Part shown: piece after piece, positions 18,001 through 24,000 of the stretch
Layout of the letters: each line of letters begins with the position of its first letter
Numbering within the stretch: the stretch's first letter is position 1
Assembly: GCF_011045215.1 (NCBI RefSeq)
Contig: NZ_CP049201.1
Length of the DNA: 64,000 bases
Reading direction: 5' to 3' (one strand)
DNA from: Escherichia coli
GTDB lineage: Bacteria > Pseudomonadota > Gammaproteobacteria > Enterobacterales > Enterobacteriaceae
Program-made: the position numbers

Positions 18001-21000
18001 GACCGGCTTCCCGTATCTGTTCCGGGGGGCGATATGAAGCCACTGCGCCTGTCGCTCCCTCTCAGACCGGAAGCCGCGGTGCTGGCGGAATTACAGCTCT
18101 GGCCCGGACAGGACATGAAGCGTCTTCCGGTACCGGAAGGGTATTACACCGGGAAGGATTTTGCGGGGCTGGCGTCCCGGGCCCGGGCCGGGGACAGTGT
18201 CTCCCGTGACAGATTCTGTCCGTGAGAGGGTGTGTTTTGGGTTGCAGGGAGTGGATGTTATGAACATTCAGGTGGAACATCACAGGGGAGCATGGCGTCT
18301 CATTTTACTTCTGGCAGGTATTGTCATACCGGTTTACGGGTACAGTCATGAACTGTCAGGCACTTATGCCAGAATATTAAGTATGCATTTTTCGGATGAC
18401 ATCAGTGCTTCCGGATTGCGGACAGAGGGAGGGGGGAAATATTCCCGCTGGACTGTTCCCTGGCACAGCGAATGTCTGTATGACACGGGGATGGTCTGCT
18501 CCGGGGTGTACCTCAGGGGAAGTTATATTGACCTGAAAGGGGATGTTGATGATGGTGCCGTGGTTCACTGGCGGTCATATGGCACGCTTGTGGGGACAGA
18601 TGTCACCGTCAGGTTGTCTGAACATGTTTCAGTCAGGGGAGGTCTGGGCGTGGGATATGCCCGGGTTCGCAACATGAGTCGCGGGATGGAAGGTGATGAA
18701 AATTATGAAGAGGTGCTGGGGTGGGAGCGAAAAAATGCCCTGATTGTTTCCCCCGAAATCAGCAGTACGATAACGTCCGGTAATTTTACCCTGAGTCCGG
18801 GTCTCTCATTTTTATCCCTGCGTGAATTCTCATCATCCCGTCATGATATTGGTTCGCACGCGGGAAGTTATTCCGTCAGGATGACTTATACGTTCCGGGA
18901 TGTGTTCCGTGTGATGGGGCGCGGAAGTGATGTCATTGTGGAAAACAATACCGGAGGTTTTTACGGTCCGGGCTGGAAAGAAGACCTGGGATTCAGTCTG
19001 GTGAATGAGACGCAACTGTTGTTCAGTATTCCCTTCTGTGTTGGTGGTCATGTTTTCTCTCTGCGTGCCGGGCCGGGCTTCATAAAGGGGAACGGGGGAG
19101 TCAGAGGGGTGTCATTTTCTTTTGGTCTGAAAACATGATGTGAAATCAGAAAAACAACATGAATGATAAAAAGACAGGGACGGCGCTGATACGGAAAATG
19201 ACCATTGACAGGATTATCGAATATATCGAACTTCATCTTGAAAGTGGTAAACGGATGAGCATTCATTCACTGAGTGCTTATTCCGGTTACTGCCGCAGAC
19301 ATCTGCAGCGTATTTTTCTGCTGGAGACGGGAATGCGGCTGGGCGAATATATTCGTCGCAGGCGACTGAGTCGGGCTGCCCTGCTCTGTCGCCTGTCGTT
19401 ACGTGGGTTTCAGGATATTGCCTGTAGTCTGGGATTTGATTCCCAGCAGACATTTAACCGTGAATTCAGGAAAACAGCCGGCGTGACGCCCGGACAGTAC
19501 CGCAGCCAGCCGGAATGGCGGCTTTTGCCGCTGGCAGGTCGTGCCGGCATCTCTTTTTCTGTTCCGGTCCCGGAGAGGGTTCATCTTCCGGAAGGCCGTA
19601 TTGTGGGACGACCACTGACGTTTTCCGGCCGTATACATGAGGTCCGGGATAACGGGGCGGCGGCATTTTCCGAAAGTGTGTTTGCCTGTCAGCAGGAGGC
19701 TCAGTGGTTGGTGGTGACGGCAATAACGCCGGTGGGAGGCAGGAAAGGGGATTATGAGGTCCGTTGTGGTGTGGGCGCACCGGATAACCCGTGCGGAAAC
19801 GTCTTCTCATGGGCCGAGGGGGATTACCTGTCTGTCACGTTTGAGACCACAACGACCACCCATGCGGCCCGTGCAGATTACATTTATATGAACATCCTGC
19901 CCGCTCATGGAGTTGTCCGTACGCCCGGGGTGGACATACTCGTCTTTCGTTACCATGAGGAGCGGGTGTTCTGTACGCTTTACATCCCGGTCAGTTAACC
20001 GGAAGGGCGGTGCCGGAGACAGACATTCAGGGGGGAGTAGTGAAATTTCGCTGATGCTGAATGATGAGTCCGGGGAGGGGCATGAGAAAGAAAACGGCCG
20101 GAGATTGTCAGGCGCGTTATCAGTGGGAGGGAGCGGAGAAATAATGTTTTATAAAAGATTAAAAAACCGGGCATGTGGTTCTGATTAACAGGAGTAATGT
20201 TTTACGGTGTAATATTATGTTCAGGAAAAGATGTTTATTATGTTACCCGGTACTGACCGTGTTATTCTGTATTACATCCTGTGTTCCGCCAGATGAAGCG
20301 ATTTACAGCGGCAGGGAACAGATTATAACAGGAGGGGCAGGTACACCGATATATAAAGAGGACAGTAAAGGACATCAGAAGCGCGATATACGAATGGAAC
20401 GAATCAGGGACCATGGGTGTGAAGATAACAGTACAGACTGTGGCAGACCATTTGGCTGGTAGTTATTGTCAGGAAGCGTCTGGTGTTTATTATTTTTATG
20501 CACACGTCGTGGCAGGGGATTAACAGAAGATGATTTCTGATATGTGTTATTCCTGATTTTTCTCAGGGTTGCGCCGGGTGCTCAGGATATATAGCCAGGA
20601 GAATTCTTCGGGAAGAGGAGAGCCTCTTATTTGTTAATGAGAAAAGCAGAAGTGAATGACTCTTTCATCACAAAAATCCTGACAGGTAATAACGTTCTGC
20701 GTGCTGCAATTGCCCGCATTGAGTGGGTTTTTGAAACATTTCCGTCGGTATGTCTGTCTTTTTCAGGTGGAAAGGATTCCACCGTACTGTTCCATCTTGT
20801 GGCAAATGTGGCCCGCAGGAAAAAACGTCGATTCTCTGTACTGTTCATTGACTGGGAAGCCCAGTACCAGTGTACCGTTGAACATATTCAGAAGATGCGG
20901 AATATGTACGGGGATGTGACGGAGACCTTTTACTGGGTGGCACTTCCCCTGACCACGGTAAACGGTGTCTCACAGTTTCAGCCGGAGTGGATATGCTGGG

Positions 21001-24000
21001 AACCTGGTGTGACCTGGGTCCGTCAGCCACCGGAAGAGGCCATTACGGATATGGCGTATTTTCCCTTCTACCGGTATGCCATGACCTTTGAAGAATTTGT
21101 TCCGGCATTTTCTTCCTGGTTTGCCGGTAACCGGTGCGGTGTGGCGATACTGACTGGTGTCCGTGCGGATGAATCCCTCAACCGCTTTATGGGACTGGTG
21201 TCTCAGCGTAAGCTCAGATATGCCGATGATAAACCCTGGACCACGGCATCACCTCAAGGGTTTTACTACACCATGTATCCATTGTATGACTGGAAAGCCC
21301 GTGATATCTGGATATATAACGCCAGAACCCGTGCCATCTACAATCCCCTGTATGACCTGATGTACCGTGCCGGTGTGCCGTTACGTAACATGCGTGTCTG
21401 TGAGCCTTTTGGCCCGGAACAACGTAAGGGGCTGTGGCTTTACCATGTTCTGGAGCCGGAAACCTGGGCCAGGATGTGTGAGCGGGTGTCAGGGGCTGCC
21501 AGTGGGGCGCGTTATGCCAATGAAAGCGGTGCCTATTTTGCCCTGCGTAAACGTATATCAAAACCGGCTCATCATACCTGGCGCAGCTATGCGATGTTCC
21601 TGCTGGATGTGATGCCGGAAAGAACGGCAGAACATTACCGTAACAAAATTGCTGTCTACCTGCGCTGGTATCAAACGCGGGGCTTCCCGGACGATATCCC
21701 GGATGAACAGGAAAATGACCTGGGCTGCCGGGATATTCCGTCCTGGCGACGTATCTGTAAGACACTCATAAAGAATGATTTCTGGTGCCGGACCCTCTCC
21801 TTCAGCCCGAACAAACCCCGGCACTATGAACGTTACCTGCAGCGTATGAAAGAAAGGAGGAAGGAATGGGGGATTCTGTGACAGCGGAGATACTGGGTAA
21901 CATGATTCGTCAGTACTTCAGCCAGGAGCGAGCAGAAGAAGAGACCATACAGGCTCTGAATCATCTGCGCAGGGTGCTGCATGAGGTCAGTCCTTTTGCA
22001 CAGGAGCCTGTGGACTGTGTGCTGTGGGTGAAAGCGGATGAGGTGGTGGCCAATGATTATAACCCCAATGTCATGGCACCGGGTGAGAAAAAACTGCTGA
22101 AACATTCACTGGAGCAGGATGGGTTCACGCAGCCTGTGGTTGTCTCGGAAGAGAAGGAGCATTATCTGGTCGTGGATGGTTTTCATCGTCAATTACTGGG
22201 CAGGGAAGCAGGTACGGGAAAACGTCTGAAGGGCTGGTTGCCAGTGACCTGTATTAATCCGGACAGAAGGGGGCAGGCCTCACGTATTGCTGCGACCATT
22301 CGACATAACCGGGCCAGGGGGAAACACCAGATAACCTCAATGTCTGATATTGTCAGAGACCTGTCACGTCTGGGCTGGACGGATGAACGCATTGGTACAG
22401 AGCTGGGGATGGACCAGGATGAAGTGCTGAGACTGAAACAGATTAGCGGGCTGACGGAACTGTTTCAGGAAGAAAATTTCAGTCAATCCTGGACTGTTAA
22501 TTAATCGTAATGTTCCGGGGACCTCATCTTTCACAGAAATATTCTGTTCATTAGCATTCCGGTATTCGTATAACTTCTTTCTGTGGAGAGTAAACAATGC
22601 CCAGGATGCGATGGACGCTTGATCAGAAAAAACATCACGTTGCCGCATGGCGCGCAAGCGGCCTTACCCGTGAACAGTACTGTGAACTTTACGACATTCC
22701 GTTTAAATCCCTGCGCCAGTGGCCGCAGGATGTCGCAAAAGCCGAAAAACGGCTCTTCCGCAACCTGGGTTGAGATTTTCATGCCAGTGGACTCATGACC
22801 CTCTGCCTGAGTAGTTCAAATCCGGCTCGACTGCAAAATGGCATCTGAATCGATCGCAGTTTGGCATTCCATACCCTTACCCACAAGTTTTCTGGGCTAT
22901 TTCTATGGCATTAATTGACAGCATTAATTGTGTTAATCCTGACCATATAGTCTTAGGGCCTGGAGGCGAATCATTTTTTCTTGCCAGATATCCTCCTAAT
23001 CTTGCAAGCATTAAAACCGCCGTTCTTATATTCGGTATGTTTTCAGGTGGAGGCGTATTCTCTACCAATATCCAGAGATACTCATATTCTTTCTTTTCGA
23101 AAATTAAATCACAGGGTTCCTCCGGAACCATTTTATACAATGAGCTAAGATAAAGTATTCTCCATGAGATTATAAGGTATAAGGCCAGACAGTTCCTTGT
23201 GCGTTCAAATGTCTCAAGTTGTAATTTCTCAACCTGACATCCGCTTTTTAATACCTTAAAGAAAACTTCAATCTGCCAGCGTAATAAATACCATTGAATA
23301 AGCTGTGCGGGTTCCGTCAGCTTTTCTGGAGGTACACTACTCATTAGCCACCATACTAATGGCTGGACACTTTCTGGAGCATTTATTTCCTTTGCAAGTA
23401 ATACAGTTACCGTTACCGGAGAACAACGTAACTTTCCTCTTCGACCGGTGGGTGGATGTAGCGTCAACCTTGCTAAGCGTAGCTCCTGCTGGACTTTGCG
23501 GGAAGGTTGTCCTCGTCCTTCCGGAAGGGTAAACTCAATTATCTGCTGTGGCAAAATCTGCATCATTTTTTCATTCAGGAGTAATGAGTCTCTTTTTCCT
23601 GATGAATTCAGTATAGCCCGGTTAATGCTCTTCATTCTTACGAGCCAGTCAGCCTTTATCCCACTTTCATTTTCTGCACTCTCAAAGAGGTCGTAAATAT
23701 CACCTTCACGGTCTGAAACAGAAATTATCTGGGTATCAGGACAGGACCTAGCCAGTTCTGTTGCTTTTTTATATCCTTCTATCCACCGTCCTGTTTCTTT
23801 CTCACTGATATGTTTCCTGTGAAGTGAATCATTAGTTATTTCTTTACGACTTTGTTTCTGAGTTTTGAGTTCTTTTCTGAACCATTGATAATCATCATAA
23901 ACCCCTAAGCAAATACCTGAATCACTTATAACCAATTGAGGGTGAATAAACAAATCTCGCTCATTTTCATGTCGTCTGGGACCGACGCCCTGTTTCTTTT

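What the first reader, a model, noticed from the sequence alone, without database searches (positions are those of the whole stretch)
20637..22504. Overlapping PAPS-reductase-like (PP-loop) and ParB-like nuclease-domain genes (IbrA/IbrB-like pair)
A 415-aa protein with an SGGKDS PP-loop is followed, with a 16-nt overlap, by a 212-aa ParB N-terminal-domain protein. The pairing resembles IbrA/IbrB as I recall them, whose mechanism is poorly defined. PP-loop/PAPS-reductase-like domains also occur in DNA-modification and phage-defence systems, so the pair could act on nucleic acid rather than as a simple regulator. It sits at the edge of an IS-rich segment.
Basis: partly seen in the sequence, partly recalled or inferred. 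Interest (0 to 1): 0.5.

Follow-up and report, generated by a model that had tools for sequence, protein, structure and literature searches.

The report
IbrA/IbrB gene pair in island
These two overlapping genes are an intact copy of the known IbrA/IbrB pair, an ATP-using enzyme and a ParB-like DNA-binding protein that are almost always found together in bacteria and phages; the copy is ordinary, but how the pair works has never been established.

Summary
ibrA-like (20637-21881, 414 aa, SGGKDS PP-loop, PAPS_reduct + DUF3440) overlaps ibrB-like (21866-22504, 212 aa) by 16 nt. ibrB has a strong Shine-Dalgarno site inside the end of ibrA.

The pair is 99.7% identical to RefSeq genes annotated "phosphoadenosine phosphosulfate reductase" and "IbrB-like". 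It is about 92-94% identical in protein to IbrA/IbrB of E. coli islands and prophages. 2,380 of 5,426 complete E. coli genomes hold a match. Both genes are under strong purifying selection (Ka/Ks 0.06-0.10).

- **Pairing.** An IbrB homologue lies next to IbrA on the same strand in 77/80 genome loci and 74/78 viral loci. These span many bacterial phyla, an Asgard MAG and phages.
- **What it is not.** It does not meet the membership tests for CysH, DndC, BrxP or any PADLOC defence family. No cysteine is conserved and no restriction partner recurs.
- **Folds.** IbrB models as a ParB N-domain plus HTH and keeps the NTP-pocket residues. IbrA is a PP-loop adenylyltransferase-type fold plus an orphan helical domain.
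- **Partners.** Recurrent extras are a compact SNF2 ATPase, a GNAT-like protein and an unknown 140-aa protein, within phage replication/recombination modules.

Best reading: a DNA-directed, nucleotide-dependent activator module of mobile-element genes whose chemistry is unknown. The finding is already known and of modest interest.

The parts
20637..21881 (+). ibrA-like gene: PP-loop (PAPS-reductase/CysD/FAD-synthase-type) domain at residues ~20-245, plus the DUF3440 helical domain at 246-414
20763..20780 (+). PP-loop motif SGGKDS (residues 43-48), invariant across the family
   Evidence: Invariant in 84 aligned homologues from many phyla and phages.
21866..22504 (+). ibrB-like gene: two N-terminal helices (7-41), a ParB/Srx N-domain (~48-155, motifs ANDYNPN, TQPVVV, VDGFHR, TIRHNRARGKH) and a C-terminal HTH (~159-199)
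21854..21881 (+). Translational-coupling junction: Shine-Dalgarno AAGGAGG (21854-21860), ibrB ATG (21866) and the 16-nt overlap with the end of ibrA (stop at 21879-21881)
   Evidence: Read directly from the sequence. Overlapping or abutting ibrA-ibrB junctions recur in most loci.
20466..20493 (+). Candidate sigma-70 promoter for the pair (TTGTCA-16-TATTAT, 10 of 12 matches); weak evidence
   Evidence: Consensus scan only: 5 sites found against 3.4 expected by chance. The upstream region is not conserved between IbrAB copies.

Best explanation
The two genes are an intact, co-translated copy of the IbrA/IbrB module, a two-protein cassette of phage or mobile-element origin.

**Shown here.** IbrB has a ParB-type nucleotide-binding N-domain that keeps the pocket glycine, arginine and asparagine, followed by a helix-turn-helix. 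IbrA is a PP-loop enzyme of the adenylyltransferase/PAPS-reductase branch. All of its nucleotide-binding motifs are invariant and it has no conserved cysteine. It also carries an orphan helical domain, DUF3440. The two genes are almost never found apart.

**Inferred.** IbrB binds DNA as a nucleotide-gated switch, in the manner of KorB, VirB or Noc. It recruits or is served by IbrA. IbrA spends ATP (alpha-beta cleavage) to adenylate a substrate on or beside the IbrB-DNA complex. The outcome is activation, probably by counter-silencing, of horizontally acquired genes.

The only experimental phenotype for this family is that ibrA and ibrB together switch on prophage eib adhesin genes (Sandt et al. 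2002; abstract recalled from memory, cited in PMC7649339). In this selC island the likely targets are neighbouring surface or adhesin genes. That last step is pure inference.

**Confidence.** Identity as a functional IbrA/IbrB pair is about 0.95. The mechanism as stated is about 0.4.
For: **Identity.**
- 99.7-99.8% nt identity to annotated IbrB-like pairs, with matches in 2,380 of 5,426 complete E. coli genomes.
- 92% protein identity to phage PhiR5_2 IbrA, with IbrB annotated next to it.
- Source names 'co-activator of prophage gene expression' and 'immunoglobulin-binding regulator'.

**Functional constraint.** Ka/Ks is 0.06-0.10.

**Obligate partnership.** IbrB is adjacent on the same strand in 77/80 genome loci and 74/78 viral loci.

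**IbrB as a DNA-binding NTP switch.**
- AF2 pLDDT 91.
- Box II G105/R108 and Box III N148 are invariant in 126 sequences and R151 is at least 90% conserved. All four align to G77/R80/N112/R115 of Spo0J.

**Regulatory context.**
- ibrA-ibrB is followed by a PerC-family regulator in E. coli islands and plasmids.
- ibrB and perC are co-induced on host-cell contact (PMC7649339).
- The ybdNM paralogue is repressed by the LysR regulator YbdO (PMC9068703).
- In some phages the pair lies just upstream of the terminase, where late activators sit.
Against: - No biochemical data exist for any family member. YbdM is called 'completely uncharacterized' (PMC8764527).
- A transcription factor does not obviously need a PP-loop enzyme.
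- No conserved operator was found upstream of ibrA copies.
- The recurrent SNF2, GNAT-like and methyltransferase neighbours, and the position inside phage replication/recombination modules, fit a DNA-modifying or DNA-processing role at least as well.
- The original eib phenotype was read at protein level and could be indirect, for example through partial prophage induction.
- The pair also occurs in virulent phages, where counter-silencing of foreign genes is a less natural need.
Confidence: 0.42

Rival explanations
1. IbrAB is a DNA (or RNA) covalent-modification module. IbrB, like DndB or DpdB, targets or loads the enzyme onto DNA. IbrA adenylates a base or backbone position so that a group can be added, sometimes with a GNAT-like acyltransferase or an SNF2 translocase. 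Phages would use it to mark their own DNA, either against restriction or for replication and packaging. Gene activation in E. coli would be a side effect.
For: - The catalytic motifs of IbrA are invariant across phyla.
- A compact SNF2 ATPase lies directly beside the pair in 15/80 genome loci, 14/78 viral loci and cultured Lactobacillus, Streptococcus and Flavobacterium phages.
- A GNAT-like 130-aa partner recurs.
- Small methyltransferases are adjacent in Arthrobacter and Bacillus phages, and a DNA methyltransferase cluster occurs in viral loci.
- The pair lies among RecE-like, Sak4 and helicase genes.
- Precedents pair a ParB-like protein with a modification enzyme: DndB-DndC and DpdB-DpdA (PMC12839542).
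Against: - No modification has ever been reported for IbrAB-carrying phages or E. coli.
- No sulfur, Fe-S or amidotransferase partner is conserved, and no cysteine is conserved.
- Most loci carry only the two genes.
- The core chromosomal paralogue ybdNM is silent and repressed, which is odd for a self-marking system.
- The genetic phenotype on record is gene activation.
Confidence: 0.27
2. IbrAB is an anti-phage defence system related to Dnd or to type 4 BREX, carried on a mobile island.
For: - The PP-loop region gives weak partial hits to BrxP (1e-7) and DndC (1e-4 here; 2.5e-11 for the Streptococcus phage homologue).
- The pair sits in variable islands and plasmids next to IS elements.
- One E. 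coli island also holds a TerB-N/ATPase/DEAD-helicase trio nearby.
Against: - It is not a member of any PADLOC v2 family, and IbrB and the accessory proteins have no PADLOC hit.
- The DndC and BrxP matches cover only 60-100 residues and lie far below family cut-offs.
- No nuclease or effector partner recurs in 158 loci.
- The family is abundant in phage genomes, including lytic ones.
- A paralogue is a core, repressed chromosomal operon.
Confidence: 0.07
3. IbrB is a partition or packaging DNA-recognition protein (centromere-binding ParB or small-terminase-like) and IbrA is an accessory; the pair would serve plasmid or phage DNA segregation or packaging.
For: - ParB fold plus HTH.
- The pair lies immediately upstream of the terminase large subunit in Mycobacterium phage Obutu and two genes upstream of it in Arthrobacter phage Laroye.
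- TerL lies about 4 kb downstream in 6 viral loci.
Against: - No ParA partner is present and IbrB has no C-terminal dimerisation domain (212 aa).
- In Streptococcus and Lactobacillus phages and most viral loci the pair lies in the early or recombination module, far from packaging genes.
- Chromosomal islands and the core ybdNM locus have nothing to package or partition.
- Laroye has a separate HTH protein in the TerS position.
Confidence: 0.07
4. IbrA is a true PAPS/APS reductase, an auxiliary sulfur-assimilation gene as the RefSeq product name implies, and IbrB is an unrelated neighbour.
For: - The product name in RefSeq.
- Pfam PAPS_reduct hit.
Against: - Scores are far below NCBIfam cut-offs: TIGR02057 36 vs 254 bits and cysH 30.8 vs 165 bits.
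- No cysteine is conserved in 84 homologues, so the catalytic C-terminal Cys of CysH and the Fe-S cysteines of APS reductase are absent.
- IbrA has a canonical SGGKDS ATP-pyrophosphatase loop.
- The best structural match is an adenylyltransferase, FAD synthase.
- Linkage to a ParB-like gene is obligate.
Confidence: 0.02

Closest known systems
IbrA/IbrB of E. coli ECOR-9 (immunoglobulin-binding regulators; Sandt, Hopper & Hill 2002, J Bacteriol 184:3640)
   Same: Overlapping ibrA-ibrB gene order, and the same domain architectures. Proteins are about 92-94% identical to E. coli island or prophage copies that carry this name. Carried on islands, prophages and plasmids.
   Different: This copy sits in a selC island, in a block otherwise seen on ruminant E. 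coli and E. fergusonii plasmids. The first ~12-19 codons and the upstream region are unrelated to the chromosomal copies. The usual downstream perC-family gene is replaced by an IS66-family element. No eib or YadA-type gene was identified among the ORFs I annotated in the window; plasmid C5 has one about 4 kb away.
YbdN/YbdM of E. coli K-12 (core paralogue, repressed by YbdO/CitR)
   Same: Same two-gene architecture and order. IbrA is about 59-62% identical to the YbdN orthologues at the syntenic locus in other Enterobacterales. Function also unknown (PMC9068703, PMC8764527).
   Different: ybdNM is a fixed chromosomal locus between ybdO/dsbG/ahpCF and ybdL. The window pair belongs to the mobile IbrAB lineage.
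DndB-DndC (DNA phosphorothioation) and BrxP (type 4 BREX)
   Same: These systems also combine a ParB/Srx-superfamily protein with a PAPS-reductase-superfamily PP-loop enzyme. The SGGKDS-type loop is shared.
   Different: Only short partial matches: DndC 14.9 bits against a 290-bit cut-off, and BrxP over 80 of 779 positions. There are no Fe-S cysteines, no DndA/D/E, PglZ or BrxC neighbours, and IbrB does not hit any PADLOC model.
ParB-family CTP switches used as regulators (KorB of RK2, VirB of Shigella, Noc)
   Different: Box I is NPN rather than QPR, and Box II is DGFHR rather than GERRxRA. There is no C-terminal dimerisation domain. The obligatory enzyme partner IbrA has no counterpart in those systems. 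Nucleotide specificity is unknown.
CysD, FAD synthase (FMN adenylyltransferase) and CysH
   Different: IbrA has an extra 170-aa DUF3440 domain with no detectable relative in the PDB by sequence profile. It has no CysN partner and no redox cysteine.

Membership tests
IbrA/IbrB (immunoglobulin-binding regulator pair) | Overlapping or abutting ibrA then ibrB genes on one strand | tested here: met
   16-nt overlap with an SD site inside ibrA.
IbrA/IbrB (immunoglobulin-binding regulator pair) | IbrA architecture: PAPS_reduct/PP-loop plus DUF3440, with high identity to proteins named IbrA | tested here: met
   Pfam. 92% identity to annotated phage IbrA. 94-95% identity to the E. coli clusters. AFDB names.
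IbrA/IbrB (immunoglobulin-binding regulator pair) | IbrB architecture: ParB-like N-domain plus HTH, annotated IbrB-like | tested here: met
   RefSeq name on the 99.7% identical gene. PHROG 2159, E = 9e-82. Fold evidence.
IbrA/IbrB (immunoglobulin-binding regulator pair) | The two proteins together activate eib or prophage gene expression | not testable with these tools
   Needs genetics. The original paper (PMC135156) is not held.
DndC (DNA phosphorothioation) | Full-length match to the DndC model above its cut-off | tested here: not met
   TIGR03183 scores 14.9 bits against a 290.4-bit cut-off. PADLOC DndC E = 1.6e-4, partial match.
DndC (DNA phosphorothioation) | Conserved cysteines for the 4Fe-4S cluster, and dndA/D/E neighbours | tested here: not met
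   No cysteine is invariant or at least 90% conserved in 84 sequences. No such neighbours are present.
BrxP / type 4 BREX | Full-length BrxP match (a ~780-position model) with PglZ, BrxC and BrxL in the locus | tested here: not met
   The match covers residues 23-102 only, at 28 bits. The neighbours are fimbrial, shf/virK-like, AraC and IS genes.
CysH PAPS reductase | Score above the family cut-off, and the catalytic C-terminal cysteine | tested here: not met
   TIGR02057 scores 36 vs 254 bits and TIGR00434 scores 30.8 vs 165 bits. No cysteine is conserved.
ParB partition proteins / ParB-CTPase fold | ParB N-domain fold with the Box II Gly/Arg and Box III Asn | tested here: met
ParB partition proteins / ParB-CTPase fold | ParA partner, parS centromere and a C-terminal dimerisation domain | tested here: not met
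   No ParA-like neighbour recurs in 158 loci. The protein ends after the HTH.
ParB partition proteins / ParB-CTPase fold | CTP binding and hydrolysis | not testable with these tools
   Needs biochemistry.
Known or candidate anti-phage defence systems (PADLOC-DB v2) | Proteins match a defence-system family model | tested here: not met
   Only partial superfamily hits for IbrA. IbrB and the GNAT-like and 140-aa partners have none, except one marginal hit of the YbdM-type IbrB paralogue to a type II methyltransferase model (E = 5e-4). The SNF2 partner hits ZorD only as a generic SNF2.

The most novel reading that the evidence does not exclude
IbrA-IbrB is the conserved core of an uncharacterised and very widespread phage-borne machine. 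It would carry out an adenylation-dependent covalent modification of DNA (or of a DNA-bound nucleotide or protein). IbrB would act as an NTP-gated DNA loader. Interchangeable accessories would be a compact SNF2 translocase, a GNAT-like transferase, an unknown 140-aa protein and a cupin. This would be a new kind of epigenetic or anti-restriction chemistry whose effect in E. coli islands is read out as activation of silenced virulence genes.
Probability: 0.2. Interest if true: 0.8.

Novelty: already known. Interest (0 to 1): 0.3.

Why it matters
As an instance it matters little. It is one more copy of a gene pair present in about 44% of complete E. coli genomes and already named.

As a family it is a real gap in knowledge. 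The obligate PP-loop plus ParB-like pair is found from Enterobacteria to Clostridia, Bacteroidota, Actinobacteria phages and an Asgard MAG. It is under strong purifying selection and is misnamed 'PAPS reductase' in annotation, so it is often reported as a sulfur auxiliary metabolic gene in viromes. It has no known biochemistry.

In pathogenic E. coli the pair sits with PerC-type regulators and adhesin loci. Knowing its mechanism would bear on how mobile elements switch on virulence genes. It would also correct a common annotation error in phage genomics.

Tried and rejected
- **Literature.** Seven full-text searches found no mechanistic study. Sandt 2002 (PMC135156) and Maindola 2014 (PMC4241021) are not held.
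- **IbrA-IbrB fusions.** I looked among the 150 best IbrB representatives and found none. The longer proteins carry only ParB_N or a LAGLIDADG insertion. Two AFDB entries of 505-551 aa may be fusions or merged ORFs; I did not resolve them.
- **Conserved operator or parS-like site upstream of ibrA.** The upstream regions of four IbrAB copies do not align. Only trivial palindromes occur locally.
- **The 140-aa accessory family (A10).** No Pfam, PDB or PHROG match.
- **Sulfur-metabolism reading.** Rejected (see rivals).
- **Plasmid origin of the window.** Rejected. It is a selC chromosomal island carrying a plasmid-like block.
- **A complex model of IbrA with IbrB.** Not possible with the available structure tool.

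
Full report
**1. Observation**

The ORF list shows a + strand ORF at 20631-21881. It has a TTG start and an in-frame ATG at 20637, which gives 414 aa. A second + strand ORF lies at 21866-22504 (212 aa). The two overlap by 16 nt.

SGGKDS is residues 43-48. An AAGGAGG Shine-Dalgarno sequence lies 5 nt before the ibrB ATG, inside the end of ibrA. The pair is therefore built for translational coupling.

Pfam finds PAPS_reduct (in two pieces), the PP-loop family and DUF3440 in the first protein. It finds only a marginal ParB_N hit in the second (E = 0.013). 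The ParB assignment becomes solid with better methods:
- A 126-sequence family profile hits Noc (1e-7), ParB (6e-7), Spo0J and SbnI.

An IS66-family end begins 26 nt after the ibrB stop and is duplicated (22530-22674 and 24746-24890). It flanks an IS4-family transposase gene. The "edge of an IS-rich segment" is therefore correct.

**2. Identity**

- Megablast against complete E. coli genomes gives 99.7-99.8% identity to two bovine-strain plasmids. There the genes are annotated "phosphoadenosine phosphosulfate reductase" and "IbrB-like domain-containing protein". 2,380 of 5,426 genomes hold a match, mostly chromosomal at 80-95% identity.
Names include "co-activator of prophage gene expression IbrA", and AFDB homologues are called "immunoglobulin-binding regulator".
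- Escherichia phage PhiR5_2 carries annotated IbrA/IbrB (IbrA 92% identical in protein) next to antirepressor genes.
- Homology to the chromosomal copies starts about 35-57 nt inside ibrA and ends at the ibrB stop. The two genes therefore travel as a cassette.
- Ka/Ks against three homologues is 0.06-0.10 for both genes.
- E. coli K-12 has a core paralogue, ybdN-ybdM, repressed by the LysR regulator YbdO (PMC9068703; locus structure). YbdM is described as completely uncharacterised (PMC8764527).

**3. Context in the window**

The window is not a plasmid. tRNA-SeC lies at 37418-37512. A P4-type integrase gene lies at 35932-37119, followed by yicJ/yicI-type genes. This marks a selC-integrated island.

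- Its right part (28.2-37.6 kb) matches the leoA/leoB island of ETEC H10407-type strains at 94-95%.
- The 12.6-22.5 kb block holds a FaeA/PapI-type regulator, a PgaB/IcaB-type deacetylase, a GT4, VirK, DUF4056, a Rob/AraC-like regulator, ibrA and ibrB. This block is 99.5% identical to a block on ruminant E. coli and E. fergusonii plasmids.
- In a divergent plasmid (86%) and in chromosomal islands, ibrA-ibrB is followed by a PerC-family regulator. In the window that position is taken by the IS66-family element.

**4. The pair across life**

A pattern scan of 100,044 species genomes with an IbrA alignment gave 80 loci. They come from Enterobacterales, Clostridia, Bacteroidota, Verrucomicrobiota, Alphaproteobacteria, Helicobacter, Bacillus, Fibrobacteria, Coriobacteriia and an Asgard MAG.

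- A local HMM search finds an IbrB homologue immediately downstream on the same strand in 77 of these loci. The three exceptions are cut by contig ends.
- In IMG/VR viral contigs, 74 of 78 loci have IbrB within 1 kb on the same strand, in either order.
- Both proteins belong to strong PHROG families (2302 at 2e-84 and 2159 at 9e-82).
- 224 of 50,697 cultured phage records encode IbrA. These include Flavobacterium, Mycobacterium, Streptococcus, Arthrobacter and Bacillus phages.
- No third gene is universal.

Recurrent partners are:
- A compact SNF2 ATPase with all the helicase motifs. It occurs in 15/80 genome loci and 14/78 viral loci, and in Lactobacillus, Streptococcus and Flavobacterium phages.
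- A GNAT-like ~130-aa protein.
- An unknown ~140-aa helical protein in 23/78 viral loci, with no Pfam, PDB or PHROG match.
- Small methyltransferases in Arthrobacter and Bacillus phages.

Viral neighbours are RecE-like exonuclease, Sak4, helicase, resolvase-like and DNA methyltransferase genes. A terminase large subunit lies a few kb downstream in some loci, immediately downstream in Mycobacterium phage Obutu and two genes downstream in Arthrobacter phage Laroye.

**5. What the proteins look like**

*IbrB.* It has two N-terminal helices, a ParB/Srx domain and an HTH.
- ANDYNPN aligns with Box I (PNPYQPR).
- VDGFHR aligns with Box II (GERRFRA).
- RHNRAR aligns with Box III (ENLQRE).
- The C-terminal helices align with the ParB HTH.

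G105, R108 and N148 are invariant in 126 sequences, and R151 is at least 90% conserved. In ParB, the equivalent residues bind and hydrolyse CTP; this is established knowledge of the ParB CTPase family. IbrB lacks a C-terminal dimerisation domain.

**6. Comparison with known systems**

- DndC scores 14.9 bits against a 290-bit cut-off. The cysH models score 31-36 bits against 165-254.
- BrxP matches only ~80 residues around the PP-loop. IbrB hits no PADLOC model.
- Distant homologues and the accessory proteins give the same picture.
- No Dnd, BREX, ParA or nuclease partner recurs.

The pair is thus a member of the IbrA/IbrB family. It is only a superfamily-level relative of DndB/DndC, BrxP, CysH/CysD and ParB.

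**7. Mechanism**

*Shown here.* The cassette is obligate, co-translated and strongly constrained. It consists of an apparently active PP-loop enzyme and a ParB-type NTP-pocket protein with an HTH. It sits in DNA-metabolism contexts of phages and in regulatory or virulence contexts of E. coli islands.

*From the literature.* ibrA and ibrB together activate prophage eib genes (Sandt 2002; abstract recalled from memory, cited in PMC7649339). ibrB and perC are co-induced on host-cell contact.

*Inferred.* IbrB is a nucleotide-gated DNA-binding switch, and IbrA performs an ATP-dependent adenylation on or beside it. The output is activation of mobile-element genes. I put about 0.4 on this. I put about 0.27 on the alternative that the primary activity is a covalent nucleic-acid modification used by phages, with gene activation as a by-product. 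Defence, packaging/partition and sulfur metabolism each get small weights.

**8. Verdict**

The finding is real and correctly named, but it is an already known and widespread gene pair. Interest in this instance is modest (0.3). The family-level question of what an obligate PP-loop plus ParB-like pair does remains open. It is testable with the experiments listed under next steps.

Noticed in passing
window 28173-37512 and 37748-41515: The window is a selC-integrated chromosomal island. tRNA-SeC lies at 37418-37512 (-) and a P4-type integrase gene at 35932-37119 (-), followed by yicJ-like transporter and yicI alpha-xylosidase genes. The island's right part carries a Tia/Adr-like OMP, leoA/leoB-like genes, a phosphoethanolamine transferase and a TPR protein. 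It matches ETEC H10407-type islands at 94-95%. No complete E. coli genome in the collection holds the whole arrangement.
   Followed up: partly
window 12607-19998: A conserved block lies upstream of ibrA: a PgaB/IcaB-type polysaccharide deacetylase, a GT4 glycosyltransferase, VirK/DUF535 (an shf-capU-virK-like trio by my recollection), two hypothetical proteins, DUF4056, an OMP-like hypothetical protein and a Rob/AraC-GyrI-like regulator. The block is 99.5% identical to one on bovine and ovine E. coli and E. fergusonii plasmids. It is linked to ibrAB again at 86% identity on other plasmids.
   Followed up: partly
window 22530-24890: A perfect 145-nt direct repeat (22530-22674 and 24746-24890) flanks an IS4-family transposase gene (22877-24292, - strand). 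It looks like a duplicated IS66-family end with nested IS insertions. It starts 26 nt after ibrB, where related loci carry a perC-family gene.
   Followed up: partly
L097-L171 (e.g. L121:7573-7992; alignment A10): An unknown ~140-aa helical protein family has the motifs WE.Y..GMY, NRIAWLGQAA.C and LT..QQ..AN. It lies between or beside IbrB and IbrA in 23 of 78 viral loci. It has no Pfam, PDB or PHROG match.
   Followed up: partly
L032, L034, L041, L065, L069, L071 etc. (alignment A6); L054, L089, L090 etc. (alignment A7): Two further facultative partners of the pair were seen. One is a GNAT-like ~130-aa protein, upstream in Bacteroidota and between A and B in Clostridia. The other is a compact ~415-aa SNF2 ATPase directly upstream, including in Lactobacillus, Streptococcus and Flavobacterium phages. 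A cupin-like 124-aa ORF sits between A and B in L160, L165 and L166.
   Followed up: partly
L002 13281-19105 (E. coli M217 chromosome): Next to the chromosomal ibrA-ibrB-perC cassette lies a three-gene cluster: a TerB N-terminal domain protein, an ATP-binding protein and a DEAD/DEAH helicase. Integrase fragments flank it. It is possibly a defence-type module.
   Followed up: no
AFDB entries A0A6N3R9C3 (505 aa, Shigella) and A0A378A3J0 (551 aa, Klebsiella): These proteins are longer than IbrA and align to it over ~330 columns. One is named 'ParB-like nuclease domain protein'. They may be IbrA-IbrB fusions or merged ORFs across the overlap.
   Followed up: no
window 20202-20462: A small unannotated ORF (86 aa from the ATG) lies between the AraC-like gene and ibrA. 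Its N-terminus looks like a lipoprotein signal (…LFCITSC…). It has no NCBIfam match.
   Followed up: no
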